From an uncultured Chloroflexia bacterium (GTDB lineage Bacteria > Chloroflexota > Anaerolineae > Anaerolineales > UBA4823): a stretch of DNA of 64,000 nucleotides. The stretch lies in assembly GCA_963736805.1 (NCBI GenBank), contig CAVTQM010000063.1, positions 18,324 through 82,323 of the forward strand. Reading direction: 5' to 3'. Made by a program: the position numbers and the translations under genes. A model generated the notes under the pieces. The model was not told where the DNA came from, did no database searches, and was given only the letters and a program-made list of their open reading frames with translations. Position 1 is the stretch's first letter. Every line of letters begins with the position of its first letter. Shown in pieces: positions 182-51,978 of this stretch.

Positions 182-212
182 AAAAAAAACAAAAAGCCGA
201 CCATTTCGGCCG
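182..212 (-). terminator. Rho-independent terminator candidate downstream of the dynamin-like gene
   Basis: GCCGA/TCGGC stem (196-200 / 206-210), followed on the minus strand by a long U-tract (A-run 182-195 on the plus strand). Confidence 0.5.
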
Positions 213-416
213 GTTTCGCTATTTGCTCCCCAAAGACCTCCCCAGAAAAAAGGTAAGCGCCCAATTCGATCTTTGGTTCATCGCATCCGTAGATATTTAT
301 ACTTGTCAGGCTCGATCTCGTTATCTATTAACTTATAACCCCTCCGTTTGTAACCTTGTGATTATTATCCCGATTTTATCCGTAGTCAAGGAGGGAATGT
401 CATAAAATTCACAAAC

Positions 417-9143: not shown

Positions 9144-9563
9144 ATGGGACGCACACTTCCATCTGTTACGCAAGTTTTTCTGAAAGAGCAGGAGTTTTTC
9201 CTGCGTTTCCGGCGTGCCCTGCGGCGCAGCGACCAGAAAGCACTGGACGACCTCTTCGCCGCGGCCCACAAGCACCTGGCTGCCGCAGCTTATGCCGCAC
9301 ATGCCCTGCCTTTCGAGGTCTTCCTGCTTTCGATGCTGCTGGAGGAACACAAGCAGGTGCTGCGCATGCGTTACCTGCTGAACCCCAGCGATGCGGCCGC
9401 CCTGGAGCAGCTGGAGCAGGGCGATTCCACGGCCTACCTTGATTCGCTCGCCGCAGAGGTGGAAGGGGGTGACCCTGCCCCACTTCGCACGCCTCTGAGG
9501 AGACGCAGCACCGGCCTCACCTCCTGGCCGGGTGGAGGCAGAGCCCCCGGCCTCGCCTCCTGA
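9144..9563 (+). CDS. Hypothetical small Ala/Leu-rich (predicted helical) protein with a Pro/Gly/Arg-rich tail
   Basis: 139-aa ORF with AAGGAGG 6 nt upstream. It lies 11 nt after the previous stop and 14 nt before the polymerase ATG. I recognise no family. Confidence 0.5.
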   Translation: MGRTLPSVTQVFLKEQEFFLRFRRALRRSDQKALDDLFAAAHKHLAAAAYAAHALPFEVFLLSMLLEEHKQVLRMRYLLNPSDAAALEQLEQGDSTAYLDSLAAEVEGGDPAPLRTPLRRRSTGLTSWPGGGRAPGLAS

Positions 9564-9577
9564 CCTGCTCAACTTGC

Positions 9578-11852
9578 ATGGCTGAACTCAAAGGCTGGCT
9601 GCTGGACCTGTTTGCTGATACGCACAGTGGGATTGTGCTCTGGCTGGTGGGTGAGGATGGGCAGCGCCATCGCCTGATTCAGGATTTCCCCATCACCTTT
9701 TATGCGGCTGGCGAGTCAAAACGCTTGCGGCAATTGTGGCGCTTCCTGCAGTCTCAGCCGGAGAAGGTGGAGCTGAAGCGCACCACGCGGCAGGATATCT
9801 TCTCATCCCAACCTGTGGAGGTACTGGAAGCCCGGTTGGACCAAACGGCAGCTCAGCCTAATCTTTTCCAACGTGTCGCCCGCGAATTCCCCGAGCTGCC
9901 TTATTACGACGCTGACTTGCCCATCACCACGCGCCATTCTGCCCTTTACAATACCTTTCCACTGGCACACTGCCAGGTGGAAGCAGATGAACGGGGTGCC
10001 GTGCAGGCACTGGAAGTGTTGGATACGCCCTGGGAGCTGGACCCCCCACCACCCCCTCTGCGCCTGTTGGCGATCGAGCCAGATGTTGACCCGGCACACG
10101 CAGATCCGCAGGCCCTGTACGTGCGCTCCATGAGCGTTTCCTACCGATTCAGCCTGGAACACCCCCGCCCGCTGCTGGTCAACCTGCGCGCAATTCTCCA
10201 GCGCCAGGACCCGGATGTGCTGATGACTGCCTGGGGCGACACCTGGCTGCTGCCTTACCTGATCGACCTGGCTGAAAAGTGGCGCATCCCGCTGCCCTTG
10301 AACCGTGAGCCAGGTCGGGAGGTCATCCGCAAAGATGAGCGCAGCTACCAGGCTTATGGGCAGGTGATCTACCGTGGCAAGCAGGTGCACCTGTTTGGGC
10401 GCTGGCATATCGATGGTTGCAATGCAATGCTGTTCCATGAGTACGGTCTGGAGGGGGTGTATGAGCTGGCGCGCGTCACTGCCCTGGCCGGCCAGGTGGT
10501 GGCACGCGTTTCGCCCGGCAGCGGCATTTCTGCCATGCAAATGGTGACTGCACTACGCCTGGGGATCATGGTGCCCTGGCACAAGCAGCAAGCCGAACGC
10601 CCCAAAAGTGCCCTTGAGATGATGCAGGCTGACCAGGGAGGATTAGTCTACCAGCCCCTCATCGGCCTTCACCGCGATGTGGCGGAGGTGGACTTCATTT
10701 CGATGTACCCCAGCATCATGCGCCACTTTAATATCTCGCCCGAGACGGTGGCAGACCCGAATGCTAAAGGGAGGGACCAGTACGCCCGGCTGGAGCGGGT
10801 TTCGGAGCTGGGTTTGTGGATCGACCAGGATACCGTCCGGCCTGATCCCCCAAACGCTGGCTCCCCTGCTGGACAAACGCCTGGAGCTCAAGCTGCGTCT
10901 GGCAGAGTTGCCCGCCTGGGACCCACGTCGCCAGACTTACCAGGCTCAAGCTACAGCTCATAAATGGCTGCTGGTCACCTGCTTTGGCTACCTGGGTTAC
11001 AAGAACGCCCGCTTTGGGCGCATCGAAGCCCACGAGGCGGTCACTGCTTATGGGCGCGAGATGCTGCTGCGCGCCAAGGAGGCTGCTGAAGACCTGGGAT
11101 TCACCGTGCTGCACATGTATGTGGATGGCTTGTGGGTGAAAAAGAAGGGATTGGCGGATGTGCCGTCGTTCCAGCCGCTGCTGGAGGAGATCACCACCCG
11201 CACCGGTCTGCCGATTGCCCTGGATGGAATTTACCGCTGGGTGGCTTTCCTGCCCTCCCGCATGGATGAGCGCGTGCCGGTGCCCAACCGTTATTTTGGT
11301 GTCTTTCAGGATGGCAGCCTGAAGATGCGCGGCATTGAGACCCGCCGTCACGACACGCCAGCCTGGGTGGCTAATGCGCAAAAGGAGATCCTCGATATCC
11401 TGGTGCATACCTCCGATGTGGAGGACCGCTCCACCTACCTACCCCAGGTATTAAGATCACTGCGCAGGGCGTTGACCAGGCTGCGCACATCTGGGGTGCG
11501 TGTGGAAGACTTGTTGGTCTCGCAGACGTTAAGCCGCGAGTTATCGGAATACCGCACACCCTCACCAGCTGCCCGGGCGGCGGCACAGCTGGCTGCGCGG
11601 GGTAAGCACCTGCGCCCGGGGCAGCGGGTGCGCTTCGTATATACGCTGGGTGAGCCGGGTGTGCATGCCTGGGATTTGCCCCAGCAACCTGAGCTGCGCA
11701 GCATAGACCAGGAACGCTACCGGGTATTGTTATTCCGTGCTGCCGCCACCATCCTGCAGCCGTTTGGTGTGGAAGAGGATGACTTAAAAACCCGCGTGAT
11801 TTCAAATGCATTTGATGTAACCTTTTTTGCACCGATGTATCTAAATAGTTGA
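9578..11852 (+). CDS. Family B DNA polymerase (archaeal/Pol II-like architecture) with degenerate exonuclease motifs; one frame disruption near 10828-10840
   Basis: Two overlapping ORFs (9578..10963 and 10677..11852) join into one PolB. Motif A is EVDFISMYPSIM. GLIPQTLAPLLDKRLELK follows after the frame switch. Motif B region is KWLLVTCFGYLGY and motif C region is VLHMYVDGLWV. Confidence 0.8.
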
Positions 11853-11906: not shown

Positions 11907-12122
11907 ATGGGTTTCGCACGTTTCATGTCTTCATTAACTGGCCGTCTGCTCCGCATCGTGGCGGGGATTGTACTCGCCGCCCTTGGTCTGGTTGTTGTGC
12001 ACGGAACAGGTGGAATTATCCTGGCAATTATTGGTCTTGTAGTTTTAGCAGCCGGCTTGTTTAACTTTTGTATTTTTGCGCCTATATTTGGTGGACCTTT
12101 CTTGGCCAAAAATATTAAATAA
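11907..12122 (+). CDS. DUF2892 (YgaP-like) small membrane protein
   Basis: 71-aa ORF with GGAG upstream and two hydrophobic helices (LRIVAGIVLAALGLVVV, IILAIIGLVVLAAGLFNFC). Confidence 0.65.
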   Translation: MGFARFMSSLTGRLLRIVAGIVLAALGLVVVHGTGGIILAIIGLVVLAAGLFNFCIFAPIFGGPFLAKNIK

Positions 12123-12211
12123 TATTAATGCATTTTTCCATGCGATTGGTCCATTCTGTCCATCTAAAATGGATAATTAGGTTAAAATAGCATATCTTGA
12201 AGGAGGCATAT

Positions 12212-12982
12212 ATGAAACTATATGTTGGTCAGTCAGCTCCCGATTTTACCCTTCCATCCCACTTGGATAAGGATGTCAGGCTCAGCGATTACCTGGGGAA
12301 AAATGTCGTACTGGTGTTCTTTCCAAAGGCCTGGACGCCCATCTGAACAGGCCAGATCCCGTCGTACGAAGCCGATACGGGTAAGTTCGCGGGATTGGAT
12401 GCCCAGGTCCTGGGCGTAAGCATTGATCACGTTCCCTGCCTGAAAGCATGGGCAGAATCTATGGGGGGATTAATTACCCCCTGATGAGTGATTTCTGGCC
12501 ACATGGCAGGGTGGCAAACTTGTATGATGTGTTCACGAGAGAAGGAAGGGGATTCTGAGCGGGCTATCTTCGTCATTGATAAACGCGGTTATATCCGCTA
12601 TATCGATATCCATGATATCGATCATCAGCCGGATAATGATGTTGTGCTGGAAGTGCTTCGTCGGGTCGACCCCGAAGCAGCATTGCGCAGCCCGGCACCA
12701 CCTCCCATTAATCCGGATGAGATCCGCTTGCCGCATGGGGGCGTGGTGATGTACTGCACCCGCTGGTGCCCTGGTTGCCGGCGAGCGCGTGCTTGGCTTC
12801 AGGCAAATAAGGTCGAATACATTGAGGTGGATATCGATGTCACCCCGGGTGCTGCCGACCAGGTGAAGAAGTGGGCTAATGGCACCCGCACAACCCCAAC
12901 CTTCGATATCGAAGGGACCATCCTGGTGGGCTATGACGAGAAAAAGGTCGAACAGGCCATCAAGGAAAAAATAACCAGGTGA
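12212..12982 (+). CDS. AhpE/Bcp-like peroxiredoxin fused to a CxxC glutaredoxin/mycoredoxin-like domain; in-frame TGA (12344-12346) at the peroxidatic Cys position; two compensating indels at G-runs
   Basis: AGGAGG at 12201-12206. Reads MKLYVGQSAPDFTLP...VVLVFFPKAWTPI-TGA-TGQIPSYE. The frame leaves at G6 (12463-12468) and returns at G4 (12548-12551), and the intermediate frame reads GINYPLMSDFWPHGRVANLYDVFTREGRG. The C-terminal part reads VMYCTRWCPGCRRARAWL...TTPTFDIEG. Confidence 0.75.
12358..12381 (+). other. Stem-loop starting 11 nt 3' of the in-frame UGA (SECIS-like position)
   Basis: CCCGU (12358-12362) pairs with ACGGG (12377-12381). An inner CG/CG pair extends the stem, with an AU bulge and an 8-nt loop UACGAAGC. 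Confidence 0.35.
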
Positions 12983-12990
12983 GTAAACAG

Positions 12991-13025
12991 CCCGGAAGTT
13001 GAATACTTCCGGGTTGATTGTTTAT
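12991..13025 (+). terminator. Rho-independent terminator after the peroxiredoxin gene
   Basis: 9-bp stem CCCGGAAGT/ACTTCCGGG (12991-13013) followed by the T-rich stretch TTGATTGTTT. Confidence 0.7.
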
Positions 13026-13463: not shown

Positions 13464-14636
13464 CTATACCGATTTTTTTGACTCCGCCCGGGCAGCATCA
13501 ACCCCTACGTTTGGGTTGAATTTATAACCACATCCAGCCAGGGCGCTTTCAATAGCGCTGACGGTTACCAGGATATCCGATAGGTTGGCAGCCCCCATGT
13601 GACCGATTCGGAAGTACTCTGCACGGATGGCGGGGTGCAACCCACCTGCCAGGGTCACGCCTGCCTTTGAAACACCTGCCAGAAAGTCAGTTCCATTGAC
13701 CCCTTGTGGATAGCGTGGGGCGGTCAGGGTATGGGCAGCAAACTCGGGCTTGAGCGGCACCTGGCCTAATCCAAGCGCCTGCATACCTGCCTTGCACGCC
13801 CGGCTGATGGCGATGTGGCGGGCAATACGCTTTGGCATACCCTCTGCCAGAATTTGCCCGAGGCTCACATTCAAGGCAACGATCAAATTAACCGGTGGGG
13901 TGCCGAAGTAACCCGCCTTTCGGGCTTCGTAAGCCTGCATGATGGGCAGCCAATTCGTCCAATCTGCATAATAGTTGAGCACAGGCGTGGTCCTGTTTTG
14001 GAATTTTTGCATGGCTCGTGATCCGATCATCAGCAAGGCTAACCCCGGGGGAACTCCAATTGCCTTCTGAGAAGCGGTGAGAGTCAGGTCAACCCCCCAG
14101 GCGTCCATGGGCAGTTCTTCCCCAGCCACCGAACAAACCCCATCCACAATGACCAGCACCCCATACTGCTTTCCAAGAGCAGTGATCTGCTGCACATCTG
14201 CCATAACCGCAGTCGATGTATCCACGTGGGTGATGGTCATAAGCTTATAGGAATCAGATTCCAGGGCTGATTTTACCTGTTCCAAACCCGGGCGATCACC
14301 TGGAGGTGCTGATACAAGCGTCACCTGGGCACCATAACGCTCAAGGATGGCGGCAAAGCGTTCGGAAAAGTAGCCGGTGTTGATCACCAGGGCTTTATCC
14401 CCGGGCTCCACCAGGTTGGCTCCGGCGCAGTCCATTGCCAGGGTACCTGAACCTGCCAGTACCAGCGGCTGGCCGGACGGGCTTTCGAACACCCGGCGTA
14501 ATTGTTCCAGGGCTTGCCCAAAAGTTTCGATAAAGTCAGGTGCCACGTGGCTGGTGGTGGGTTCTCCCATGGCAGACAGCACAGCCGGCTCGAATTCGAT
14601 GGGACCTGGGATCATGAGCAGGGTTCGTTTTTTCAT
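13464..14636 (-). CDS. Class V PLP-dependent aminotransferase (serine-pyruvate / alanine-glyoxylate aminotransferase family)
   Basis: Start moved to ATG 14636 (MKKRTLLMIPGPIEFEP). PLP-lysine context TASQKAIGVPPGL. Intact ~390 aa. Confidence 0.8.
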   Translation of the reverse strand: MKKRTLLMIPGPIEFEPAVLSAMGEPTTSHVAPDFIETFGQALEQLRRVFESPSGQPLVLAGSGTLAMDCAGANLVEPGDKALVINTGYFSERFAAILERYGAQVTLVSAPPGDRPGLEQVKSALESDSYKLMTITHVDTSTAVMADVQQITALGKQYGVLVIVDGVCSVAGEELPMDAWGVDLTLTASQKAIGVPPGLALLMIGSRAMQKFQNRTTPVLNYYADWTNWLPIMQAYEARKAGYFGTPPVNLIVALNVSLGQILAEGMPKRIARHIAISRACKAGMQALGLGQVPLKPEFAAHTLTAPRYPQGVNGTDFLAGVSKAGVTLAGGLHPAIRAEYFRIGHMGAANLSDILVTVSAIESALAGCGYKFNPNVGVDAARAESKKSV

Positions 14637-14652
14637 AAATAATCTCCGTCTA

Positions 14653-15051
14653 TCAGTGAATAGCTGGATCTTCGATAATAACAACACTCCCATCAATCTG
14701 CACCAGGCTGCCAGAGAGGATTTCTTGGATGGGTAACTGGTCCACACACGGGATTTCGGCAATAATACAGCCCACCGCAATAATGGTCTCGCATTCCGCG
14801 TTGAGGATGGCAAGTGGAGCGTGTCCGTTCATCTTCAGGCGGTAAAGCGTATAAGAGCCCACTGTGGAACCTTTCCCGGTGGGGAAGACCAGCACCTTCC
14901 CGGCGATACACTGGCCTTCCAGGGGATGCCCCCGCTCAACCACGATACCTGTCTCGGGGTCTACGCCACCGAAGAAGGAGATGGGTTGAGATGTAACCAA
15001 GGCTTCACCCTGGGCATTGCCCTGAAAAATGCTGCGCCCATGGAGTATCAC
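14653..15051 (-). CDS. Aconitase X swivel-domain subunit (DUF126, AcnX small subunit)
   Basis: 132 aa: GEALVTSQPISFFGGVDPETGIV...GKVLVFPTGKGSTVGSYTLYRL. Its ATG overlaps the stop of the large subunit (ATGA). Confidence 0.8.
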   Translation of the reverse strand: MILHGRSIFQGNAQGEALVTSQPISFFGGVDPETGIVVERGHPLEGQCIAGKVLVFPTGKGSTVGSYTLYRLKMNGHAPLAILNAECETIIAVGCIIAEIPCVDQLPIQEILSGSLVQIDGSVVIIEDPAIH

Positions 15052-23185: not shown

Positions 23186-23260
23186 TGGTGGGCCCAGTAG
23201 GGATCGAACCTACGGCCAAACGGTTATGAGCCGTCCGCTCTGCCGCTGAGCTATGGGCCC
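23186..23260 (-). tRNA. tRNA with CAU anticodon (elongator Met or lysidine-dependent Ile2), CCA encoded
   Basis: Reverse complement is GGGCCCATAGCTCAGCGGCAGAGCGGACGGCTCATAACCGTTTGGCCGTAGGTTCGATCCCTACTGGGCCCACCA. It folds as a cloverleaf with a canonical TTCGATC T-loop. The 1:72 pair is G:C, so it is not an initiator. Confidence 0.9.
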
Positions 23261-23299
23261 TTGTTAAAGTACAAAGTCCCTTGAATTGAGGACTTTCAG

Positions 23300-23370
23300 A
23301 GCGGGCAACGGGAATCGGACCCGTCTAAGTAGCTTGGAAGGCTACCGCACTACCACTATGCTATGCCCGC
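23300..23370 (-). tRNA. tRNA-Gly (UCC), CCA not encoded
   Basis: Reverse complement is GCGGGCATAGCATAGTGGTAGTGCGGTAGCCTTCCAAGCTACTTAGACGGGTCCGATTCCCGTTGCCCGCT. Anticodon loop is CTTCCAA. The T-loop reads TCCGATT (C at position 55). Confidence 0.85.
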
Positions 23371-23475
23371 ATTTTAGCGCTCCTATTTTATCATAAATCA
23401 AGTTGGTAAAAGCCTTGATAACTCATCAATAATTAAATGGGATATAATCTATCCAAATATATAGGAGATAAGTGT

Positions 23476-24030
23476 ATGGACAGCAAATTAAATACCCCTA
23501 CCGAAGTAACCACCCTGGCGGGAGGATGCTTCTGGTGTTTGGAAGCTGTATACGATCAACTTAAAGGTGTGCTGGATGTGGTTTCAGGCTATTCTGGAGG
23601 GCGGGTGGAAAATCCTTCCTACAAGGCAGTTTGCACCGGTAAAACTGGGCATGCTGAGGTGGTTCAGGTGACTTATGACCCAACCGTGGTCAGCTACCGG
23701 GAGCTGCTGGAAGTGTTTTTTACCATCCACGACCCGACCACGCTGAATCGCCAGGGGGCAGATGTGGGCACCCAATACCGCTCAGCCATCTTCTACCACA
23801 GCCCGGAACAAAAACTCACCGCTGAAGAGGTCATCCACGAGCTGGAAAGCGAAAAAGTCTGGGATAAACCCATCTTAACAGACCTGGTTCCCTTCACGAT
23901 TTTCTACCCGGCAGAAGAGTACCACCAGGATTATTTCCTGCGTAATCCGTACCAGGGTTACTGCATGGCGATCATCGCGCCCAAAGTGGCGAAGTTCCGG
24001 AATAAGTACCTGGCAAAATTAAAGCGATAA
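23476..24030 (+). CDS. msrA: Peptide-methionine (S)-S-oxide reductase
   Basis: AGGAGA lies 7 nt upstream of ATG 23476. Active-site motif GGCFWCLE, then TGHAEVVQVTYDP and QGADVGTQYRS. Confidence 0.9.
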   Translation: MDSKLNTPTEVTTLAGGCFWCLEAVYDQLKGVLDVVSGYSGGRVENPSYKAVCTGKTGHAEVVQVTYDPTVVSYRELLEVFFTIHDPTTLNRQGADVGTQYRSAIFYHSPEQKLTAEEVIHELESEKVWDKPILTDLVPFTIFYPAEEYHQDYFLRNPYQGYCMAIIAPKVAKFRNKYLAKLKR

Positions 24031-34300: not shown

Positions 34301-34433
34301 ATGGTCCCCAGGCTGGATTGGGAAAATCAATCTTTTACATCTATGCGTCTGGGGAAAAACCAAAAAACTGGCTGGATGGTAGGAATAAAGCTGAGGAATT
34401 ACCAGGAGATATTTTTATTGGGAGATCAAGCAA

Positions 34434-36291
34434 ATGACTGAAAACACGTTTCTGCACCAATTGATGACTTTACCCACCGTCCTGGAGGGCAGGCTGTCGC
34501 CGGATAAGCGTTGGGTGGCATTCACCTGGTATCGTTTCCACGAAAATATCGATGTTTTTCTCGTGCCTTCGGATGGCTCGCAGCCTCCCATTCCCCTTGA
34601 CCCATACTCCCGAAGCTACCGAGCTGTGAGTTGGACACCCGATTTACAGGCGGTTATCGTCTCTGAAGATCATGATGGGGATGAATATTCTCGCCTGTTT
34701 CGTGTGGACATTGGTCAACCCTTGCACATGCTCCCGCTAACAGAAGATCGCCCGGCATACTTTATCCGAGGCGGTATGCTACATCCGAATGGAAGGCACC
34801 TCTTCTACGGGGCAAATTTTGACTTTGAACAAGGAAAACTGATCGATCCGACCTGGTTATACCGGCATGATTTGATCTCAGGGGAACATGTTACCATTGC
34901 CCGTCCATCCATCCCCAATTGGCTGGTGCCACAGCTGAACCGCTTGGGAACGGATCTCAATTTACTCCCGGCGAGGTCAGAACCCCTCTGGCAGGCAGGT
35001 GTGGCTGGTGGATGTGGATGGTAGTCAGGATAAGGAAATTCTCAACTTTGGCGATCAGGTAAAAGTTACTGCAGATTGGCACCCGGATGGAGAGCACATC
35101 GTCTTCTTGAGTGAATCCACAGGCAAAGGACCACAGGATCACTTCAGCCTGGGTGTGTATCATTGGCCTACCCAGAGCACGCGTTGGCTGATAGATGACC
35201 CATCCCGGGTAATTGAGAATGATTGGGTCACCCGAGATGGCCTGGTGGTGGTTGACGAAGTGAAGGATGCTAACCACCTGACCACGTTCCTGGATATTAA
35301 ATCTGGAAAAGAGACTTGCTTCCCGCGCCTGCCAGGTAACCTGTTGCCGATTGGTCAGGCACCGGATGGGGTACCTGGATTGCCCTGTATTATTCGTCAA
35401 CTCATCCTGAAGAGCTGGTCCGGGTTCCCCTGGATGCCAAAAGGCCGGATGATCTCGGGATCCTTAACGAGGGTTTGGGAGCACACCAGCCTTTCTCCTG
35501 CACAGCTCACGCCTGCACAGGATTTCCGCTGGAAATCAGAAGATGGTTTACCGATTCAGGGTTGGTTGTATCAGGCACAGCCTAACTTAAAAAAGGCTAT
35601 TGTGTATGTACATGGGGGTCCAAGCTGGCATAGTGAGAACTGGATCAACCCTCAAATCCAATATTATGTTCAAGGGGGCTTTAACGTGCTGGATGTGAAT
35701 TACCGGGGCAGCACAGGGTTTGGCTTGAAGTATCGCCTGTCCATCAAGGAGGATGGTTGGGGCGGCCGTGAGCAGGTGGATATTGCCAGTGGAGCACTGG
35801 CACTGGTCCAGGCAGGGCTGGCAGATAAGGGAAAATTGGGGTAACGGGGACTCCTATGGAGGCGACAGCGCCTGGTACCTGCTTACTCATTATCCTCAGG
35901 AAATCTTTAAAGCTGCTGCTCCTATTTGTGGCATGACCGACCTGGTGGTGGATTACAACACAACCCGCCCTGATCTGCGCCCATTGAGCGAGGAGATGAT
36001 GGAGGTCGACCTGACCAGGTGCCGGAGCGCTATCATGAGCGCTCTCCGATCAATTTCGTTCAGGATATTCGTGGAAAGTTGTTCATCATCCAGGGTGCCC
36101 TTGACCCGAACGTCACCCCTGAAAATGTGCACCAGGTGCGGGAGAAGCTGGAGCAGATAAGATTCCCTACCAGCTATTGGTCTTTGACGATGAAGGGCAT
36201 GGAATTCACAAACCAGCCAACCAGGAAATATTGTATACTAGGCTGGCTGATTTCTTTGAGCAAGAGTCAAAGGATAAAATTTTATGCCTAA
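34434..36291 (+). pseudogene. S9-family serine peptidase (prolyl oligopeptidase / acylaminoacyl-peptidase type); at least 3 frame disruptions in this assembly
   Basis: Four collinear fragments. Beta-propeller N-terminal half, nucleophile elbow GDSYGG, and C-terminal QGALDPNV...HEF-like segment. Confidence 0.7.
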
Positions 36292-44276: not shown

Positions 44277-45606
44277 TTATTTAGCCTTACGTACGATCAC
44301 GCGCAAGCCATCAACTCGAATTACCTCGACCCGCGTCCCGGAAGGCAGGCTTGCGCTTTCATCTTCCAGATTGGCTGACCACAATTCACCCCCAACCTGC
44401 ACGCTGCCGCTCGGAGAAAGGTCTGTTCTGGCGGTGCCTATCCGGCCGCTCATGCTTTCTCTACCCACCTTGATGGGAGCCCGTTGGGCACGCACCGCGA
44501 TCATCATGATCACAAAGAAGACGGCTCCGCTGACCAACGAGACCCCCACTACCAGCGGTACTGAGACGTGTTGGAAGCTGGGGGTGGCTGGGGTGTTGAA
44601 TAATACCAACGCACCAATAATAAGGCTGCCAATCCCTGCCGCAGTGAGTGCCCCATGGGTAGGTGCCTTGATATCCAGGATGAATAACACGAATGATGTG
44701 ATGATGAATAGCAGACCGAACCAGTTTACCGGCAGGATGCCCAAGCCATAAGTGGCTATTGCCAGGCACACAACACCGATGAAACCAGCCACCCAACCAC
44801 CAGGGCTGGTGATCTCAAAAATAAGAGCCTGGACACCGATCGTGATAAGCAAAAAAACGATATTGGGGTCAGTTACGATCAGGAGCGCCTGTTCGATAAT
44901 CGAGATATTTATGGGAACAAAACTGGCATTGGCGGTATGTAAGGTGACCGGTTGCCCGCCGACAGTCACGGTGAAAGCCGTCCAGCTGGTTACGCAGCTG
45001 ATTTAAATCGACCGAGATGAAATCGATCAACCCGGCTTGAAGGGCTTCACTGGCGGAAGCTGCGCTTGCATTCTGGATGGTATCTTCAGCCAGGGCGACT
45101 GCTGCAGGACCGCGTCTTTCGGTCAGGGAACGGGCAGCAGCAGCTGTGGCGTTCTTTACCTTGGCTTCTTCAGTTGTACCCAGATCTTCCCCCTGACCTC
45201 CCACCGGGCTGGCTGCCCCGATCATGGTTTTTGGTGCCATTGAGGACGCATGCCCTGCCAGGGTGATGATGGTGCCAGCGCTGGCAGCCATGGCTCCCGA
45301 TGGGGCGACATAAACGATGACAGGGACTGTGGAAGCGAGGATCATCTGCTCCATCTCGGTCATCGTGTCAATCGAACCACCAGGGGTATTGAGTTGAAAT
45401 ATCAATGCCTCTGCACCCTGGCGCTCTGCGATCTTAATCCCACGTGACAGGTATTGTGCCATGGCGGGGGTGATCGGACCATCTGCAGTCAGCACGAGTA
45501 TTTCCGAGCCTTCGCCTTGGGCATGAACCGGAAGGTTGAAGATTGGGCTCAAACTGACCAGGCTGAGCCAAACCAGGAATAGAATTCGCTTGTATCTCAT
45601 TTTCAC
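44277..45606 (-). CDS. NfeD-family membrane-bound ClpP-class serine protease; one frame disruption near 44900
   Basis: Signal peptide, then LNTPGGSIDTM and GAMAASAGT in ORF 44869..45606. TM bundle and C-terminal OB domain (GELWSA...GTRVEVIRVDGLRVIV) in ORF 44277..44969. Confidence 0.8.
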
Positions 45607-45789
45607 TCGATTATTGTACCTTACATTAATAACTAAATACTCAGATTATATTAGTTACAGGGCCAGGGAAATCTTCGCAGCAATGAATTAGGAAGTTATG
45701 CCCATAAACCAATTTGGTATGGTTTTATCGATATATTTTCTTTGTGTCCGTCTTGTTCTTTGTGGTTATCATAAGGTTATAAGTTCAGG

Positions 45790-49163: not shown

Positions 49164-49415
49164 GCCAATCGATATAAGAAAGGTATTCTTTGGCCAATGG
49201 CCACCAGATATAACCCAATAGGAACAAGGTGAGCAGGAAACCGCTCAGCAGGAAATAAGAGTGGCTTCGTCCACCCCATCCAAGATGACAATCGCTTGCG
49301 TGTAGTCAAGGGTCTTGAATGCGTCTCTGGTGCCATGAGAGAATTTTACTATATTAAGAAAAATAGGGTTTCAAAGGCAGTGCGATTATACTTAAGCCCA
49401 TAGAATGGAGGCAGG

Positions 49416-51978
49416 ATGATCCCGATTAAACTCACCATAACCGGTTTCCTCTCGTATCAGGAAACAACTGAGCTGGATTTTACCCAGTTCGACCTGGCGT
49501 GCATCTCCGGATCCAATGGGGCAGGCAAGTCATCCCTGCTGGATGCCTTCACCTGGGTGCTGTTCGGCCAGGCACGAAAACGTGACGAGACCCTCATCAA
49601 CCTGCATTCAAATGCCGCCGAGGTTGCCCTTGTATTTGAATACGAAAGTAATACCTACCGCGTGCAGCGCACCCTGGCGAAAGGCAAGACAACCGTATTG
49701 GAATTTCAGATCCGTGCTCCTTCGGATGGGAAGTGGAGAGCCTTATCTGGAGCTACCCTGCGCAATACTCAGGAATTGATCGAGCACACCCTGCGCCTGG
49801 ATTATGAAACCTTTGTGAACGCCTCCTTCTTCCTGCAAGGCAAGGCTGACCAGTTCACCCAGCAGAAACCTGGTGATCGCAAGCGCATCCTGGGCAGCAT
49901 CCTGGGGCTGGAAGTGTGGGAAACCTACAAGCTGCGCGTGATTGAGCGTCGTAAAGGGGTTGAATCAGAAATAACCAACCTGGATGGTCGTACAGCCGAG
50001 ATTAACACAGAGTTGAGCGAAGAGCATGCTCGCACCGAGCGCCTGGCTGCTTTACAAGCGGATCTGAAACACCTGGCCAAGGCACGCAAAGCCCAGGAGC
50101 AGCTGCTCGAGCAAGCCCGAAAGGTGGACGCCACCCTGGCAGAACAGCGCAAGCTGGTAAACATGCTCGGAGGGCAGCTTGAAGCATCCCAAAACCGGCT
50201 GAATGAGCTGGATGCTCGCCTTTCTGCCCGTAAACAGGAGCGGGAGGAGTATGCCCGTAAGGTGGCAAATGCGGATGAGATTGAAGCTGCCTATGCCTCC
50301 TGGATGGAGCGTCCGGGCAGAGCTGGAACGTTGGGATGAAGTGGCAACCCGCTTCATGGAGCATGAAATCAGGCGCCAGGCACCGCGCATGGAGATTGAA
50401 GCGGAAAAGGCACGTTTACGCCAGGAACTGGACCAGCTCCAGCAGTCTGAAAAACAAATCCAGGCTCAGAATGCCTCACGGGTGGAACTTGAAGCGCAGG
50501 TTACCGATGCCCGGGAAGCCCTGGATAGGGTTGAGCAGGCTATCAGCCAACGTACTGCTCTGGATGCCGACTTGCAGGCTGCCCGGCAGAGGCAGGCGGA
50601 ATCAAGGGCTGAAAATCCCCGTTTGAAAGCCGAGATGGACCAGCTAAAAGCCCGCATTGACCAGCTTTCTCAAACGGAAGGGGCAGCCTGCCCCTTATGC
50701 GGCCGGTCCTTAGAGACACATGACCGCCTCCAGCTGATCGATGAGATTGCCGCCCAGGGAAAGGAAATGGGGGATCGTTACCGCCTTAACCTGGCTTACT
50801 TGAAGGAGGCGGACCAGAAAGTGGGGGAGATCGAAGCGCAGATTGCCCTGCTTTCCAGGGCAGACAGCGAGCGGCTGGCCCTCACCCAGGCTGTCACCCG
50901 GCTCACTGGGCAGATTGAAGCCATTCAGCAAAAAAATGATGAGTGGGAAAAGAAAGGTGCTCCCCGCATGGAGGAGCTCCAGGCAATATTTGCAACCGAG
51001 TCTTATGCGCTGGACCAACGTAAAATATTGGCGGAAATCGACGATGAATTGAAATCCATCGGCTACGACGCAGCTGCCCATGATGCCAGTCGCCAATTGG
51101 AGACCGCTGCACGCACTGCTGAGGGTGAATTACGCCTTCTGGAAGCTGCGCGGGCAGCTCTACAGCCCCTGGAGCGCGAGATTGGCGAAACGCACAAGCA
51201 GCTGGAATCATCAACGACCGAAGTCTCCCATCTCCAACAGGAGTACGATGCCGTATGTGCCCGTCTGGCAGCCGCCGAAGCAGAAGCACCTGATCTGGAT
51301 TCAGCCGAACGCAGCCTGCATGAGCTGCTCGAACAGGAGAACAATCAGATATTGGAAGTGGGTGCTGCCCAGCAGAAGGTGATGGTCTTGAAGGACTTAA
51401 AAATTCGCCTCAAAGATCTCACCGCCCAGCGCGAGGGACTTGCTCGTCTGGTTGGGCAATACAAACAGCTTGAACGGGCATTTGGCAAGGATGGTGTGCC
51501 GGCTCTGTTGATTGAACAAGCCCTGCCGGAGATTGAATCGCGTGCCAATAACTTGCTTGACCGTTTAAGCGAGGGCAATATGTCGGTCCGCTTCGCCACC
51601 CAGGCACAATTTAAAGATAAGAAACGCGAAGACCTGAGGGAAACCCTGGATATTCTCATTGCGGATGGCGCAGGGACGCGGGATTATGAGCTGTACTCGG
51701 GTGGTGAAGCTTTCCGGGTGAACTTTGCCATCCGGCTGGCCCTCTCCGAGCTGCTAGCCCGGCGTGCCGGTGCACGCCTGCAGACCCTGGTAATCGATGA
51801 AGGCTTCGGTAGCCAGGATGCGATGGGCAGGCAGCATCTGATCGAAGCCATCAACATGGTCAAGCAGGATTTTGCTAAAGTGCTGGTCATTACTCATATC
51901 GAAGAGCTGAAAGATGCCTTTCCCAACCGTATCGAGGTGGAGAAGACTGAGCATGGCAGTCTGGTGAGGGTGGTATAA
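49416..51978 (+). CDS. sbcC: SbcC/Rad50-type SMC-like ATPase; one frame disruption near 50310
   Basis: Walker A GSNGAGKSS, long coiled coil, zinc hook CPLCGRSL, signature YSGGEAFR, Walker B LVIDEGFGSQD. Confidence 0.85.

What the first reader, a model, noticed from the sequence alone, without database searches (positions are those of the whole stretch)
12212..12982. In-frame UGA exactly at the peroxidatic-Cys position of a peroxiredoxin-glutaredoxin fusion: candidate selenoprotein
Seen in the sequence:
- The ORF opens MKLYVGQSAPDFTLPSHLDKDVRLSDYLGKNVVLVFFPKAWTPI, then TGA at 12344-12346, then TGQIPSYEADTGKF.
- Conserved peroxiredoxin sequence continues after the TGA (VLGVSIDHVPCLKAWAES, SERAIFVIDKRGYIRY).
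- The TGA replaces the Cys of the FFP..(F/W)TP(V/I)C motif.
- A hairpin can form starting 11 nt after the UGA (CCCGU 12358-12362 with ACGGG 12377-12381). Bacterial SECIS elements sit at this position.
- The C-terminal ~80 aa form a CxxC redoxin domain (YCTRWCPGC...TTPTFDIEG).

Established knowledge: Sec/Cys alternation at catalytic sites, and Prx-like selenoproteins, are known in bacteria. Mycobacterial AhpE is recycled by a mycoredoxin, so a Prx-redoxin fusion makes mechanistic sense.

Inference: this is a Sec-containing 1-Cys Prx fused to its own reductant. Every other disruption I examined in this window is an indel rather than a substitution. That argues against a TGC-to-TGA sequencing error but does not exclude one.
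Basis: partly seen in the sequence, partly recalled or inferred. Interest (0 to 1): 0.7.

Follow-up and report, generated by a model that had tools for sequence, protein, structure and literature searches.

The report
Selenocysteine peroxiredoxin fused to glutaredoxin
The in-frame TGA is a real, evolutionarily conserved selenocysteine codon at the catalytic site of an AhpE-type peroxide-destroying enzyme fused to its own glutaredoxin-like reductant. Selenium-containing peroxiredoxins are already known, but public databases routinely mis-annotate this subfamily as a truncated protein.

Summary
Window 12212-12982(+) encodes an AhpC/TSA peroxiredoxin domain plus a C-terminal glutaredoxin domain, with TGA (12344-12346) at the peroxidatic position (PKAWTPI-U).

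The TGA is not a sequencing error:
- 17 of the 18 closest species-representative genomes (mostly Anaerolineae/Chloroflexota) have TGA at this codon, and one has TGT.
- More distant relatives have TGT or TGC.
- Among the top 120 protein clusters, 66 have Cys, 27 have a miscalled 'W' (one checked: TGA) and 26 are N-truncated just after the TGA.
- Both sides of the TGA show third-position-biased substitution in one frame.

A hairpin at 12355-12396, with an apical loop that usually starts with G, is conserved with covariation in the TGA forms. It is absent from seven Cys orthologues (MFE -18.3 vs -8.3 kcal/mol, p=1.5e-5).

TGA is also the commonest stop codon in the window, so the genetic code is not reassigned.

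The two frameshifts in this copy (G-run 12463-12468; extra base at 12535) are window-specific indels, and several other genes in the window are split in the same way.

No selA, selB, selD or tRNA-Sec lies in the window, so the machinery is untested for this genome. Anaerolinea thermophila is reported as SelA/B/D-positive.

Verdict: a genuine selenoprotein and a new member of a known kind.

The parts
12202..12206 (+). Shine-Dalgarno GGAGG, 5 nt upstream of the ATG
   Evidence: Read directly from the sequence.
12212..12982 (+). Whole gene: 256-codon Sec-peroxiredoxin (AhpE-like) plus glutaredoxin-like fusion. It is read through UGA-45 and, in this assembly, needs two indel corrections.
   Evidence: Pfam AhpC-TSA E=1.1e-39, Redoxin 1.2e-22, Glutaredoxin 1e-11. 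Full-length homologues of 245-257 aa have the same architecture. The ATG lies exactly 44 codons before the TGA in 13 relatives.
12212..12661 (+). Peroxiredoxin domain (residues about 1-150) with active-site motif P39-K-A-W-T43-P-I-U45 and conserved Glu116-Arg117
   Evidence: Best PDB match is M. tuberculosis AhpE Rv2238c (4X0X/1XXU), E=1.2e-27, over residues 3-134.
12344..12346 (+). UGA selenocysteine codon at the peroxidatic (Cp) position, residue 45
   Evidence: The same codon is TGA in 17 of the 18 closest loci and in 21 of 80 overall; the rest are TGT or TGC. A 'W' in a database protein is TGA in the DNA (L087).
12355..12396 (+). SECIS-like hairpin. Lower stem 12355-12361 pairs with 12390-12396. 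Middle pairs are 12363-12364/12388-12389 and 12366-12367/12385-12386. Apical stem 12370-12373 pairs with 12379-12382. Loop 12374-12378 starts with G.
   Evidence: 78.5% of cells pair, against 27-44% for slid controls. Covariation is 0.302 against 0.168 for shuffles (0/500). Sec forms average 12.7/15 pairs and MFE -18.3; Cys forms 8.1/15 and -8.3; p=1.5e-5. G is the first loop base in 18/22.
12437..12439 (+). Cys76 codon (HVPC), conserved in at least 90% of members; a possible but dispensable resolving Cys
   Evidence: Nearly invariant in A1. Replaced by Thr in L010 and Val in L011, both Sec forms.
12463..12468 (+). G6 run with a 1-nt deletion relative to orthologues (frame 0 to frame 2)
   Evidence: DNA alignment A3. 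Frame 2 then encodes the conserved INYPLMSDFWPHGRVANLYDVF.
12535..12535 (+). Extra base (TTC-A-CGA) that restores frame 0
   Evidence: DNA alignment A3. The corrected reading VFREKEGDSERAIF matches P0001.
12743..12979 (+). Glutaredoxin-like domain (residues 178-256). Invariant Cys182 (12755-12757), active site C186-P-G-C189 (12767-12778), and the cis-Pro motif T228-P229.
   Evidence: Pfam Glutaredoxin 45.3 bits (cut-off 22.9). NCBIfam YruB-family 60.8 bits and mycoredoxin 45 bits, both below cut-off.
12980..12982 (+). True stop codon of the gene, also TGA
   Evidence: TGA ends 19 of the 42 longest ORFs in the window.
12988..13016 (+). Terminator-like GC-rich hairpin followed by a T-rich tail

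Best explanation
The gene encodes a selenoprotein: an AhpE-subfamily peroxiredoxin whose peroxidatic residue (position 45) is selenocysteine, joined by a Pro-rich linker to a glutaredoxin/mycoredoxin-like CPGC domain.

Shown here:
- The UGA is conserved at the catalytic column.
- It alternates with Cys in orthologues.
- It is followed by a conserved hairpin that only the UGA forms have.

Inferred from established knowledge:
- During translation, SelB carrying Sec-tRNA(Sec) binds this hairpin, 8 nt after the UGA, and inserts Sec instead of terminating.
- The selenolate reduces H2O2 or organic hydroperoxide to form a selenenic acid.
- The fused domain's C186xxC189 resolves this through a selenenylsulfide. 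This may occur across a dimer, and possibly via Cys76 or a low-molecular-weight thiol.
- The resulting disulfide is then reduced by the cell's thiol system.

The two frameshifts in this copy are most likely assembly indel errors, so the gene is probably intact in the organism, an Anaerolineae-like Chloroflexota bacterium.
For: - Architecture: AhpC-TSA plus Glutaredoxin. The nearest solved structure is Mtb AhpE.
- TGA in genomes: present at the same codon in 17 of the 18 closest species genomes, including Ornatilinea apprima P3M-1 and an Anaerolinea thermophila MAG. It is also present in more distant Prx-only relatives (Sulfobacillus harzensis, a Bacillota MAG, an Anaerolineales MAG and a Terriglobales MAG). 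A sister clade is all TGT/TGC.
- TGA in protein clusters: of 120 clusters, 66 have Cys, 27 have 'W' and 26 are N-truncated. One 'W' was verified as TGA with the same hairpin.
- Selection: differences at codon positions 1/2/3 are 0.30/0.24/0.60 upstream and 0.22/0.18/0.49 downstream of the UGA, in the same frame.
- Hairpin: 78.5% paired against at most 44% for slid controls, with covariation reached by 0/500 shuffles. It is present in 18 Sec forms and absent in 7 Cys orthologues from separate clades (MWU p=1.5e-5 on MFE, 9e-5 on pairs). The apical loop starts with G in 18/22, the hallmark cited for bacterial SECIS (PMC1088965).
- Genetic code: TGA is the commonest stop in the window and ends this very gene.
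- Indels are window-specific: the neighbouring PolB gene is split here but is one 760-codon ORF in the closest relative L001. NfeD, SbcC and the S9 peptidase are also split.
- Machinery at class level: Anaerolinea thermophila UNI-1 is listed as SelD+, SelA+, SelB+ with 4 selenoproteins (Peng 2016 Tables S1/S2).
Against: - No tRNA-Sec, selA, selB or selD lies in the 64-kb window, and the rest of the genome could not be searched.
- No Rfam family matches the hairpin, even at E<=10. RNAalifold gave no consensus on the 22-sequence alignment, in which some sequences are register-shifted.
- This copy has two frameshifts within 72 nt, and the second is not in a homopolymer, so local pseudogenisation cannot be excluded.
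- No protein-level evidence (75Se labelling or mass spectrometry) exists for any member, as far as I could find.
Confidence: 0.85

Rival explanations
1. The family is a genuine selenoprotein family, but this particular copy is a recently inactivated pseudogene, because it carries two real frameshifts.
For: Two indels lie within 72 nt. Read literally, frame 0 meets TGA TGA at 12482-12487. The second indel (12535) is not in a homopolymer.
Against: The out-of-frame stretch still encodes the conserved peptide INYPLMSDFWPHGRVANLYDVF in frame 2 with no other damage. The two indels compensate exactly. At least four other genes in the window, including PolB and SbcC, are split in the same way, while the PolB orthologue in L001 is intact. 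That pattern fits an indel-prone assembly.
Confidence: 0.09
2. The TGA is a substitution error (TGC or TGT to TGA) in this assembly, and the real protein has Cys.
For: The assembly is visibly error-prone.
Against: The same TGA occurs in 17 of the 18 closest genomes, from independent short- and long-read assemblies, and in dozens of metagenomic clusters. This copy also carries the SECIS-like hairpin specific to the TGA forms, with 14/15 pairs.
Confidence: 0.01
3. UGA is reassigned genome-wide to an ordinary amino acid (Trp or Gly, codes 4/25), as the 'W' in 27 database proteins would suggest.
For: Gene callers produced full-length proteins with W at this column.
Against: TGA terminates 19 of the 42 longest ORFs in the window, including this gene. 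The homologous residue is the catalytic Cys, not Trp. The W calls come from short contigs, where the caller chose code 4 (1191-bp contig, 'translates to query: no' under table 11).
Confidence: 0.01
4. UGA is a real stop. The locus makes a 44-aa peptide and a separately initiated 165-195-aa 'glutaredoxin', as IMG and automatic callers annotate it.
For: Databases annotate 165-195-aa products that start at M/L-DAQVLG or at MSDFWPHG.
Against: Such a product would lack the PxxxTxxC/U active site. The 44 N-terminal codons are under purifying selection in the same frame, and they always begin with ATG exactly 44 codons upstream. The annotated restart codon lies inside the 3' arm of the conserved hairpin.
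Confidence: 0.03

Closest known systems
Peroxiredoxin (Prx) selenoprotein family with a T-x-x-U active site (Zhang & Gladyshev surveys); prototype PrxU of Eubacterium acidaminophilum (Sohling et al. 2001)
   Same: Sec replaces the peroxidatic Cys in the PxxxTxxC motif of a PF00578 domain. Cys homologues are widespread, and repeated Cys/Sec switching is reported for this family (PMC1794560, PMC1088965, PMC13188914). NCBIfam PrxU is the top-scoring model.
   Different: It scores 69.8 bits against the PrxU cut-off of 270, so it is not a PrxU equivalog. The Prx domain is AhpE-like rather than AhpC/Prx1- or BCP-like, and it carries a fused Grx domain.
Mycobacterium tuberculosis AhpE (Rv2238c), a 1-Cys peroxiredoxin recycled by mycothiol/mycoredoxin-1
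   Same: It is the closest solved structure (E about 1e-27 over residues 3-134; shared PLLSDFWPHG and FVxDxxGxIR blocks). The peroxidatic residue is position 45 in both. AhpE's reductant is a small CxxC glutaredoxin-like protein (PMC6178380, citing Hugo 2014).
   Different: Here the peroxidatic residue is Sec, not Cys. The reductant-like domain is fused in cis with a CPGC site and an extra invariant Cys182. The hosts are Chloroflexota, for which mycothiol was not examined here. The mycoredoxin model TIGR02200 scores below its cut-off (45 vs 89.5).
Prx-Grx hybrid peroxiredoxins (Prx5-type, e.g. Haemophilus influenzae PGdx); from my own knowledge, not tested here
   Same: An N-terminal peroxiredoxin and a C-terminal glutaredoxin in one chain, so the enzyme carries its own reductant.
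   Different: Those are Prx5-subfamily, Cys-based and glutathione-dependent. This one is AhpE-subfamily and Sec-based, with a NrdH/YruB/mycoredoxin-like domain.
Bacterial SECIS elements (e.g. E. coli fdhF), bound by SelB
   Same: A stem-loop immediately 3' of the UGA, inside the coding region, with a small apical loop containing G (PMC9312934, PMC1088965).
   Different: There is no sequence similarity to any curated RNA family. SelB binding is untested. The apical loop lies 27 nt after the UGA. From memory, this falls inside the 16-37 nt range of the bSECISearch model.

Membership tests
Bacterial selenoprotein gene (UGA recoded via a coding-region SECIS) | In-frame UGA aligned with Cys in homologues (a Sec/Cys pair) | tested here: met
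   21 TGA against 59 TGT/TGC at the same column in 80 loci. Among protein clusters: 66 Cys, 27 W and 26 truncated.
Bacterial selenoprotein gene (UGA recoded via a coding-region SECIS) | Coding conservation continues in the same frame on both sides of the UGA | tested here: met
   Third-position bias is 0.60 upstream and 0.49 downstream, against 0.18-0.30 at positions 1 and 2.
Bacterial selenoprotein gene (UGA recoded via a coding-region SECIS) | Stem-loop immediately downstream of the UGA with a small G-containing apical loop, conserved in the Sec forms | tested here: met
   The stem-loop is absent in 7 Cys orthologues.
Bacterial selenoprotein gene (UGA recoded via a coding-region SECIS) | selA, selB, selD and tRNA-Sec in the same genome | not testable with these tools
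   None is present in the 64-kb window, and the rest of the genome is not available. At class level, Anaerolinea thermophila UNI-1 is SelD/SelA/SelB-positive with 4 selenoproteins.
Bacterial selenoprotein gene (UGA recoded via a coding-region SECIS) | Selenium actually incorporated into the protein | not testable with these tools
   This needs 75Se labelling or mass spectrometry.
Peroxiredoxin (AhpC/TSA, PF00578), AhpE subfamily | PF00578 domain above the gathering score | tested here: met
   135.6 bits against a cut-off of 26.
Peroxiredoxin (AhpC/TSA, PF00578), AhpE subfamily | PxxxTxxC/U active-site motif and a conserved catalytic Arg | tested here: met
   P39-KAW-T43-PI-U45, read from the sequence. 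Glu116-Arg117 are invariant.
Peroxiredoxin (AhpC/TSA, PF00578), AhpE subfamily | Closest characterised relative is AhpE rather than another Prx subfamily | tested here: met
   AhpE chains score E=1.2e-27. The next subfamily (BCP/Prx-like, 2YWN) scores 7.5e-19.
PrxU (NF040737 equivalog) | Score at or above the curated cut-off | tested here: not met
   69.8 bits against a cut-off of 270.
Glutaredoxin-fold domain (PF00462); mycoredoxin/YruB type | PF00462 above cut-off, with a CxxC active site and a cis-Pro motif | tested here: met
   45.3 bits against 22.9. C186-P-G-C189 and T228-P229 are invariant.
Glutaredoxin-fold domain (PF00462); mycoredoxin/YruB type | Membership of TIGR02200 (mycoredoxin) or TIGR02196 (YruB) at their curated cut-offs | tested here: not met
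   45 against 89.5 and 60.8 against 88.55. It resembles these families but cannot be filed under either.
Prx5-Grx hybrid (PGdx type) | Prx domain belongs to the Prx5 subfamily | tested here: not met
   The 60 listed PDB matches are AhpE, BCP/Prx-like, Prx1-4/AhpC, tryparedoxin-peroxidase and Tpx entries. No entry named as a Prx5-type or Prx-Grx hybrid appears among them.

The most novel reading that the evidence does not exclude
This may be a selenoprotein architecture that has not been explicitly described: a Sec-containing AhpE-type peroxiredoxin covalently fused to a mycoredoxin-like reductant. It is widespread in Anaerolineae. Sec and Cys forms have interconverted at least about nine times within one family, and the SECIS lower stem constrains the encoded peptide (I-P ... 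G-L). That would give a natural series of matched Sec/Cys pairs for testing why Sec replaces Cys at a peroxidatic site.
Probability: 0.45. Interest if true: 0.5.

Novelty: new member of a known kind. Interest (0 to 1): 0.4.

Why it matters
It shows that a stop codon which looks like damage in a noisy assembly is a functional recoding signal.

Public gene calls for this whole subfamily are wrong. They appear as 165-195-aa 'glutaredoxin' or 'peroxiredoxin' fragments, or as full-length proteins with a spurious Trp. Antioxidant capacity and selenium use in Anaerolineae are therefore probably under-counted. These bacteria are abundant in anaerobic digesters, sediments and subsurface habitats.

The family also supplies many closely related Sec and Cys versions of one enzyme with its reductant attached. 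That makes it a convenient system for measuring what selenium contributes to a peroxiredoxin: reaction rate, resistance to over-oxidation and ease of recycling.

It does not change current understanding, because Sec at the peroxidatic position of peroxiredoxins is well established.

Tried and rejected
- **RNAalifold:** on the 22 UGA-downstream sequences it returned no consensus structure, probably because several sequences are shifted by one register. I therefore tested an explicit structure with the count of structure pairs.
- **Rfam:** no hit at gathering score over the whole window, and none at E<=10 on 12250-12500.
- **tRNA-Sec:** none in the window or in 22 related loci.
- **Pfam scan of the 40 longest ORFs in the window:** no SelA, SelB or SelD.
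- **Source contig and organism:** exact look-up of two window proteins (PriA, MsrA) found nothing on record.
- **Gene neighbourhood:** only the closest relative, L001, shares the upstream PolB and the small membrane protein. There is no conserved operon and no sel genes in the flanks.
- **Literature:** searches for a Sec-containing AhpE or Prx-Grx fusion found only the general Prx selenoprotein family.
- **Frame reconstruction:** my first version (..TREGRGSER..) placed the second indel wrongly. DNA alignment corrected it to ..REKEGDSER...
- **Not run:** structure prediction, because the tool returns no inter-residue distances and sequence evidence already fixes the folds. The metagenome-wide scan was also skipped, because the genome scan plus targeted look-ups gave enough Sec and Cys examples.
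Full report
**1. What is in the sequence**

Window 12212-12982(+) opens with ATG, 5 nt after a GGAGG Shine-Dalgarno (12202-12206). It reads MKLYVGQSAPDFTLPSHLDKDVRLSDYLGKNVVLVFFPKAWTPI, then TGA (12344-12346), then continues in the same frame with TGQIPSYEADTGKFAGLDAQVLGVSIDHVPCLKAWAES.

The literal frame then breaks. Frame 0 meets TGA TGA at 12482-12487, while frame 2 encodes the conserved INYPLMSDFWPHGRVANLYDVF. Frame 0 resumes with REKEGDSERAIFVIDKRGYIRY... and runs to a TGA stop at 12980-12982.

DNA alignment to three relatives pins the two lesions. One is a 1-nt deletion in the G6 run 12463-12468; relatives have GGGNGGN there. The other is one extra base at 12535 (TTC-A-CGA).

The corrected 256-aa protein has the following features:
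- a Pfam AhpC-TSA domain (residues 5-131, E=1.1e-39);
- a Pfam Glutaredoxin domain (residues 178-235, E=1e-11);
- a Pro-rich linker between the two domains;
- a WCPGC site at 12767-12778.

A terminator-like hairpin follows the stop (12988-13016).

**2. Is the TGA an error?**

No. All 13 listed hits that are at least 72% identical to the query are only 165-195 aa long. They begin at M/L-DAQVLG just after the TGA position, or further downstream at MGGINYPL or MSDFWPHG. Most full-length hits are at most about 65% identical.

Among the top 120 clusters:

| Residue at the catalytic column | Clusters |
|---|---|
| Cys | 66 |
| Trp (miscalled) | 27 |
| N-truncated just after the TGA | 26 |
| Arg | 1 |

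One 'Trp' protein (P0002) was traced to its contig. The codon is TGA, and the tool notes that the gene does not translate to the database protein under table 11.

A scan of one genome per GTDB species returned 80 loci, and I read the codon aligned to residue 45 in each.
- The 18 closest loci all have the Prx domain with the downstream Grx domain where the contig allows. They are mostly Anaerolineae/Chloroflexota MAGs, plus Ornatilinea apprima P3M-1, an Anaerolinea thermophila MAG and two Acidobacteria MAGs. Of these, 17 have TGA and one has TGT.
- TGA also appears in more distant Prx-only relatives: Sulfobacillus harzensis DSM 109850, a Bacillota MAG, an Anaerolineales MAG and a Terriglobales MAG.
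- A large deltaproteobacterial clade (FVPAAWTPVCSDQWPGYN) is entirely TGT/TGC.
- Overall there are 21 TGA and 59 Cys codons.

In 13 relatives the ATG lies exactly 44 codons before the TGA. Pairwise differences concentrate at third codon positions on both sides of the UGA: 0.30/0.24/0.60 for codons 1-44 and 0.22/0.18/0.49 for codons 46-85. The whole ORF is therefore under purifying selection as one reading frame.

**3. Is the genetic code reassigned?**

No. TGA ends 19 of the 42 longest ORFs in the window, and it ends this very gene. Recoding must therefore be site-specific.

**4. The RNA signal**

Folding the 66 nt from each UGA gives the same architecture in nearly every TGA-bearing sequence. 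In window coordinates it is:
- a lower stem, 12355-12361 with 12390-12396 (GAUCCCG / CGGGAUU);
- two short middle helices;
- an apical stem, 12370-12373 with 12379-12382;
- a 5-nt loop that begins with G in 18 of 22 sequences.

Counted on the 22-sequence alignment, 78.5% of cells form standard pairs, against 27-44% when the 3' partners are slid by 1-3 columns. The covariation score is 0.302 against 0.168 for shuffles (0/500). Seven of 15 pairs show double-sided changes, for example GAUGCCC/GGGGCAU in L007 and GGUC/GACC, GGCU/AGCC and GGAA/UUCC in the apical stem.

The control is seven Cys-containing fusion orthologues from separate clades (L005, L081-L086). They encode very similar peptides (CxxQIPxYEAExxKFxAL..).

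| Measure | Sec forms (n=18) | Cys forms (n=7) | Mann-Whitney p |
|---|---|---|---|
| Pairs formed, of 15 | 12.7 | 8.1 | 9e-5 |
| MFE, kcal/mol | -18.3 | -8.3 | 1.5e-5 |

The Sec forms keep Gly-Leu (GGA UUG) where the Cys forms have Ala/Glu/Ser-Leu. The hairpin therefore constrains the protein sequence.

Rfam has no matching family. RNAalifold returned nothing on the ungapped alignment, probably because several sequences are shifted by one register.

The features match the published description of bacterial SECIS elements: a stem-loop immediately 3' of the UGA with a small apical loop containing guanosine (PMC9312934, PMC1088965).

**5. What kind of protein is it?**

The best solved-structure matches are all M. 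tuberculosis AhpE (Rv2238c; 4X0X, 1XXU and others), at E about 1e-27 over residues 3-134. The next subfamily scores about 1e-19. AhpE's peroxidatic Cys is Cys45, and AhpE is recycled by mycoredoxin-1 (PMC6178380, citing Hugo et al. 2014). Sec here is also residue 45.

NCBIfam's best models are listed below. All fall below their cut-offs, so the protein resembles these families but is not a member of any of them.

| NCBIfam model | Score (bits) | Cut-off |
|---|---|---|
| PrxU, the selenoprotein peroxiredoxin | 69.8 | 270 |
| YruB-family Grx | 60.8 | 88.55 |
| Mycoredoxin | 45 | 89.5 |

Invariant residues across 20 aligned homologues include Glu116-Arg117, Cys182, Cys186, Cys189 and Thr228-Pro229. 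Cys76 is conserved in at least 90% of members but is replaced in two Sec forms. The obligatory resolving thiol is therefore more likely in the fused domain.

**6. Mechanism (inferred)**

- SelB carrying Sec-tRNA(Sec) reads the hairpin and inserts Sec at UGA-45.
- The selenolate reduces the peroxide.
- The resulting selenenic acid is captured by the CPGC domain, possibly from the partner subunit, as in other Prx-Grx hybrids.
- The disulfide that forms is reduced by the cell's thiol system.

Steps shown here: the conserved UGA, Sec/Cys alternation, a hairpin specific to the Sec forms, and the domain identities. Steps not shown: SelB binding, selenium incorporation, and the electron path.

**7. 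The frameshifts**

The window's PolB-family gene is split into two frames (9473-10960 and 10647-11849), whereas the orthologue in the closest relative L001 is one 760-codon ORF. NfeD (44277-45645), SbcC/Rad50 (49404-51975) and an S9 peptidase (34395-36160) are split in the same way.

The stretch between the two Prx indels still encodes the conserved peptide, undamaged. I therefore read the indels as assembly errors (about 0.9) rather than pseudogenisation (about 0.1).

**8. Sec machinery**

None is in the window: there is no tRNA-Sec and no SelA, SelB or SelD among the 40 longest ORFs. I could not retrieve the source genome.

At class level, Peng et al. 2016 list Anaerolinea thermophila UNI-1 as SelD+, SelA+ and SelB+ with four selenoproteins. 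Sec-containing formate dehydrogenases are also reported in deep-sea subphylum I Chloroflexi single-cell genomes (PMC5736913).

**9. Novelty**

Peroxiredoxin with a TxxU site is one of the classic bacterial selenoprotein families. PrxU has been characterised experimentally, 43 members were found in the Sargasso Sea, and 91 selenoproteins in 78 organisms were counted by Peng 2016. Repeated Cys-to-Sec conversions have been inferred for it.

By that definition this protein is a member of a known family. What I did not find described is the AhpE-type subfamily with a fused Grx domain in its Sec form. Public annotations treat it as truncated 'glutaredoxin' or 'peroxiredoxin'.

On a rough NJ tree of 117 sequences, the Sec and Cys states are interleaved, with at least 9 parsimony changes.

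I rate it a new member of a known kind, with interest 0.4.

Noticed in passing
window 9473-11849 (+); also 34395-36160, 44277-45645, 49404-51975: Several genes (family-B DNA polymerase, S9 peptidase, NfeD, SbcC/Rad50) are split into overlapping ORFs in different frames. The PolB orthologue in relative L001 (356-2635) is one intact 760-codon ORF. The window looks like an indel-prone (long-read?) assembly.
   Followed up: partly
window 200-297 (-): Rfam c-di-GMP-II-GAG riboswitch aptamer hit, 43.2 bits (gathering score 40), E=4e-5. The gene it would control lies beyond the window start.
   Followed up: no
L005 3127-3192: The single Cys (TGT) form among the 18 closest genomes still has the apical GGCC-GAUAA-GGCC stem but has lost the lower stem. 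This looks like a recent Sec-to-Cys conversion with a decaying SECIS. Its neighbours on the tree (P0013, P0061) are TGA forms.
   Followed up: partly
L043 6193 (and 3136): A deltaproteobacterial MAG carries a Cys peroxiredoxin of this family and, 3 kb away, a second and more divergent Prx gene with TGA at the peroxidatic position (ITFFPAAFTPL*TGEMEG).
   Followed up: no
protein P0025: One full-length homologue has Arg at the Sec/Cys column (PLAWTPVRTGQIP). This could be a TGA-to-CGA/AGA change or an error, and the protein would be catalytically dead.
   Followed up: no
window 11907-12122 (+): A 71-aa ORF that looks like a small two-helix membrane protein lies directly upstream of the Prx gene. 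The PolB gene, this ORF and the Prx gene keep the same order in L001 (75% identity for this ORF), but not in other relatives. Its function was not examined.
   Followed up: partly
window 23186-24030: tRNA-Met and tRNA-Gly (minus strand) lie next to an intact MsrA gene (PMSR, E=1e-68). MsrA is a selenoprotein in some bacteria, but this copy is an uninterrupted ORF. The catalytic residue was not checked.
   Followed up: no
window 13464-14813 (-); L086 2450-3762: A class-V aminotransferase (PF00266, the fold that also includes cysteine desulfurase and selenocysteine lyase) lies just downstream of the Prx gene here, and also next to a Cys-form orthologue in L086. This is probably coincidental, and the subfamily was not determined.
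   Followed up: no
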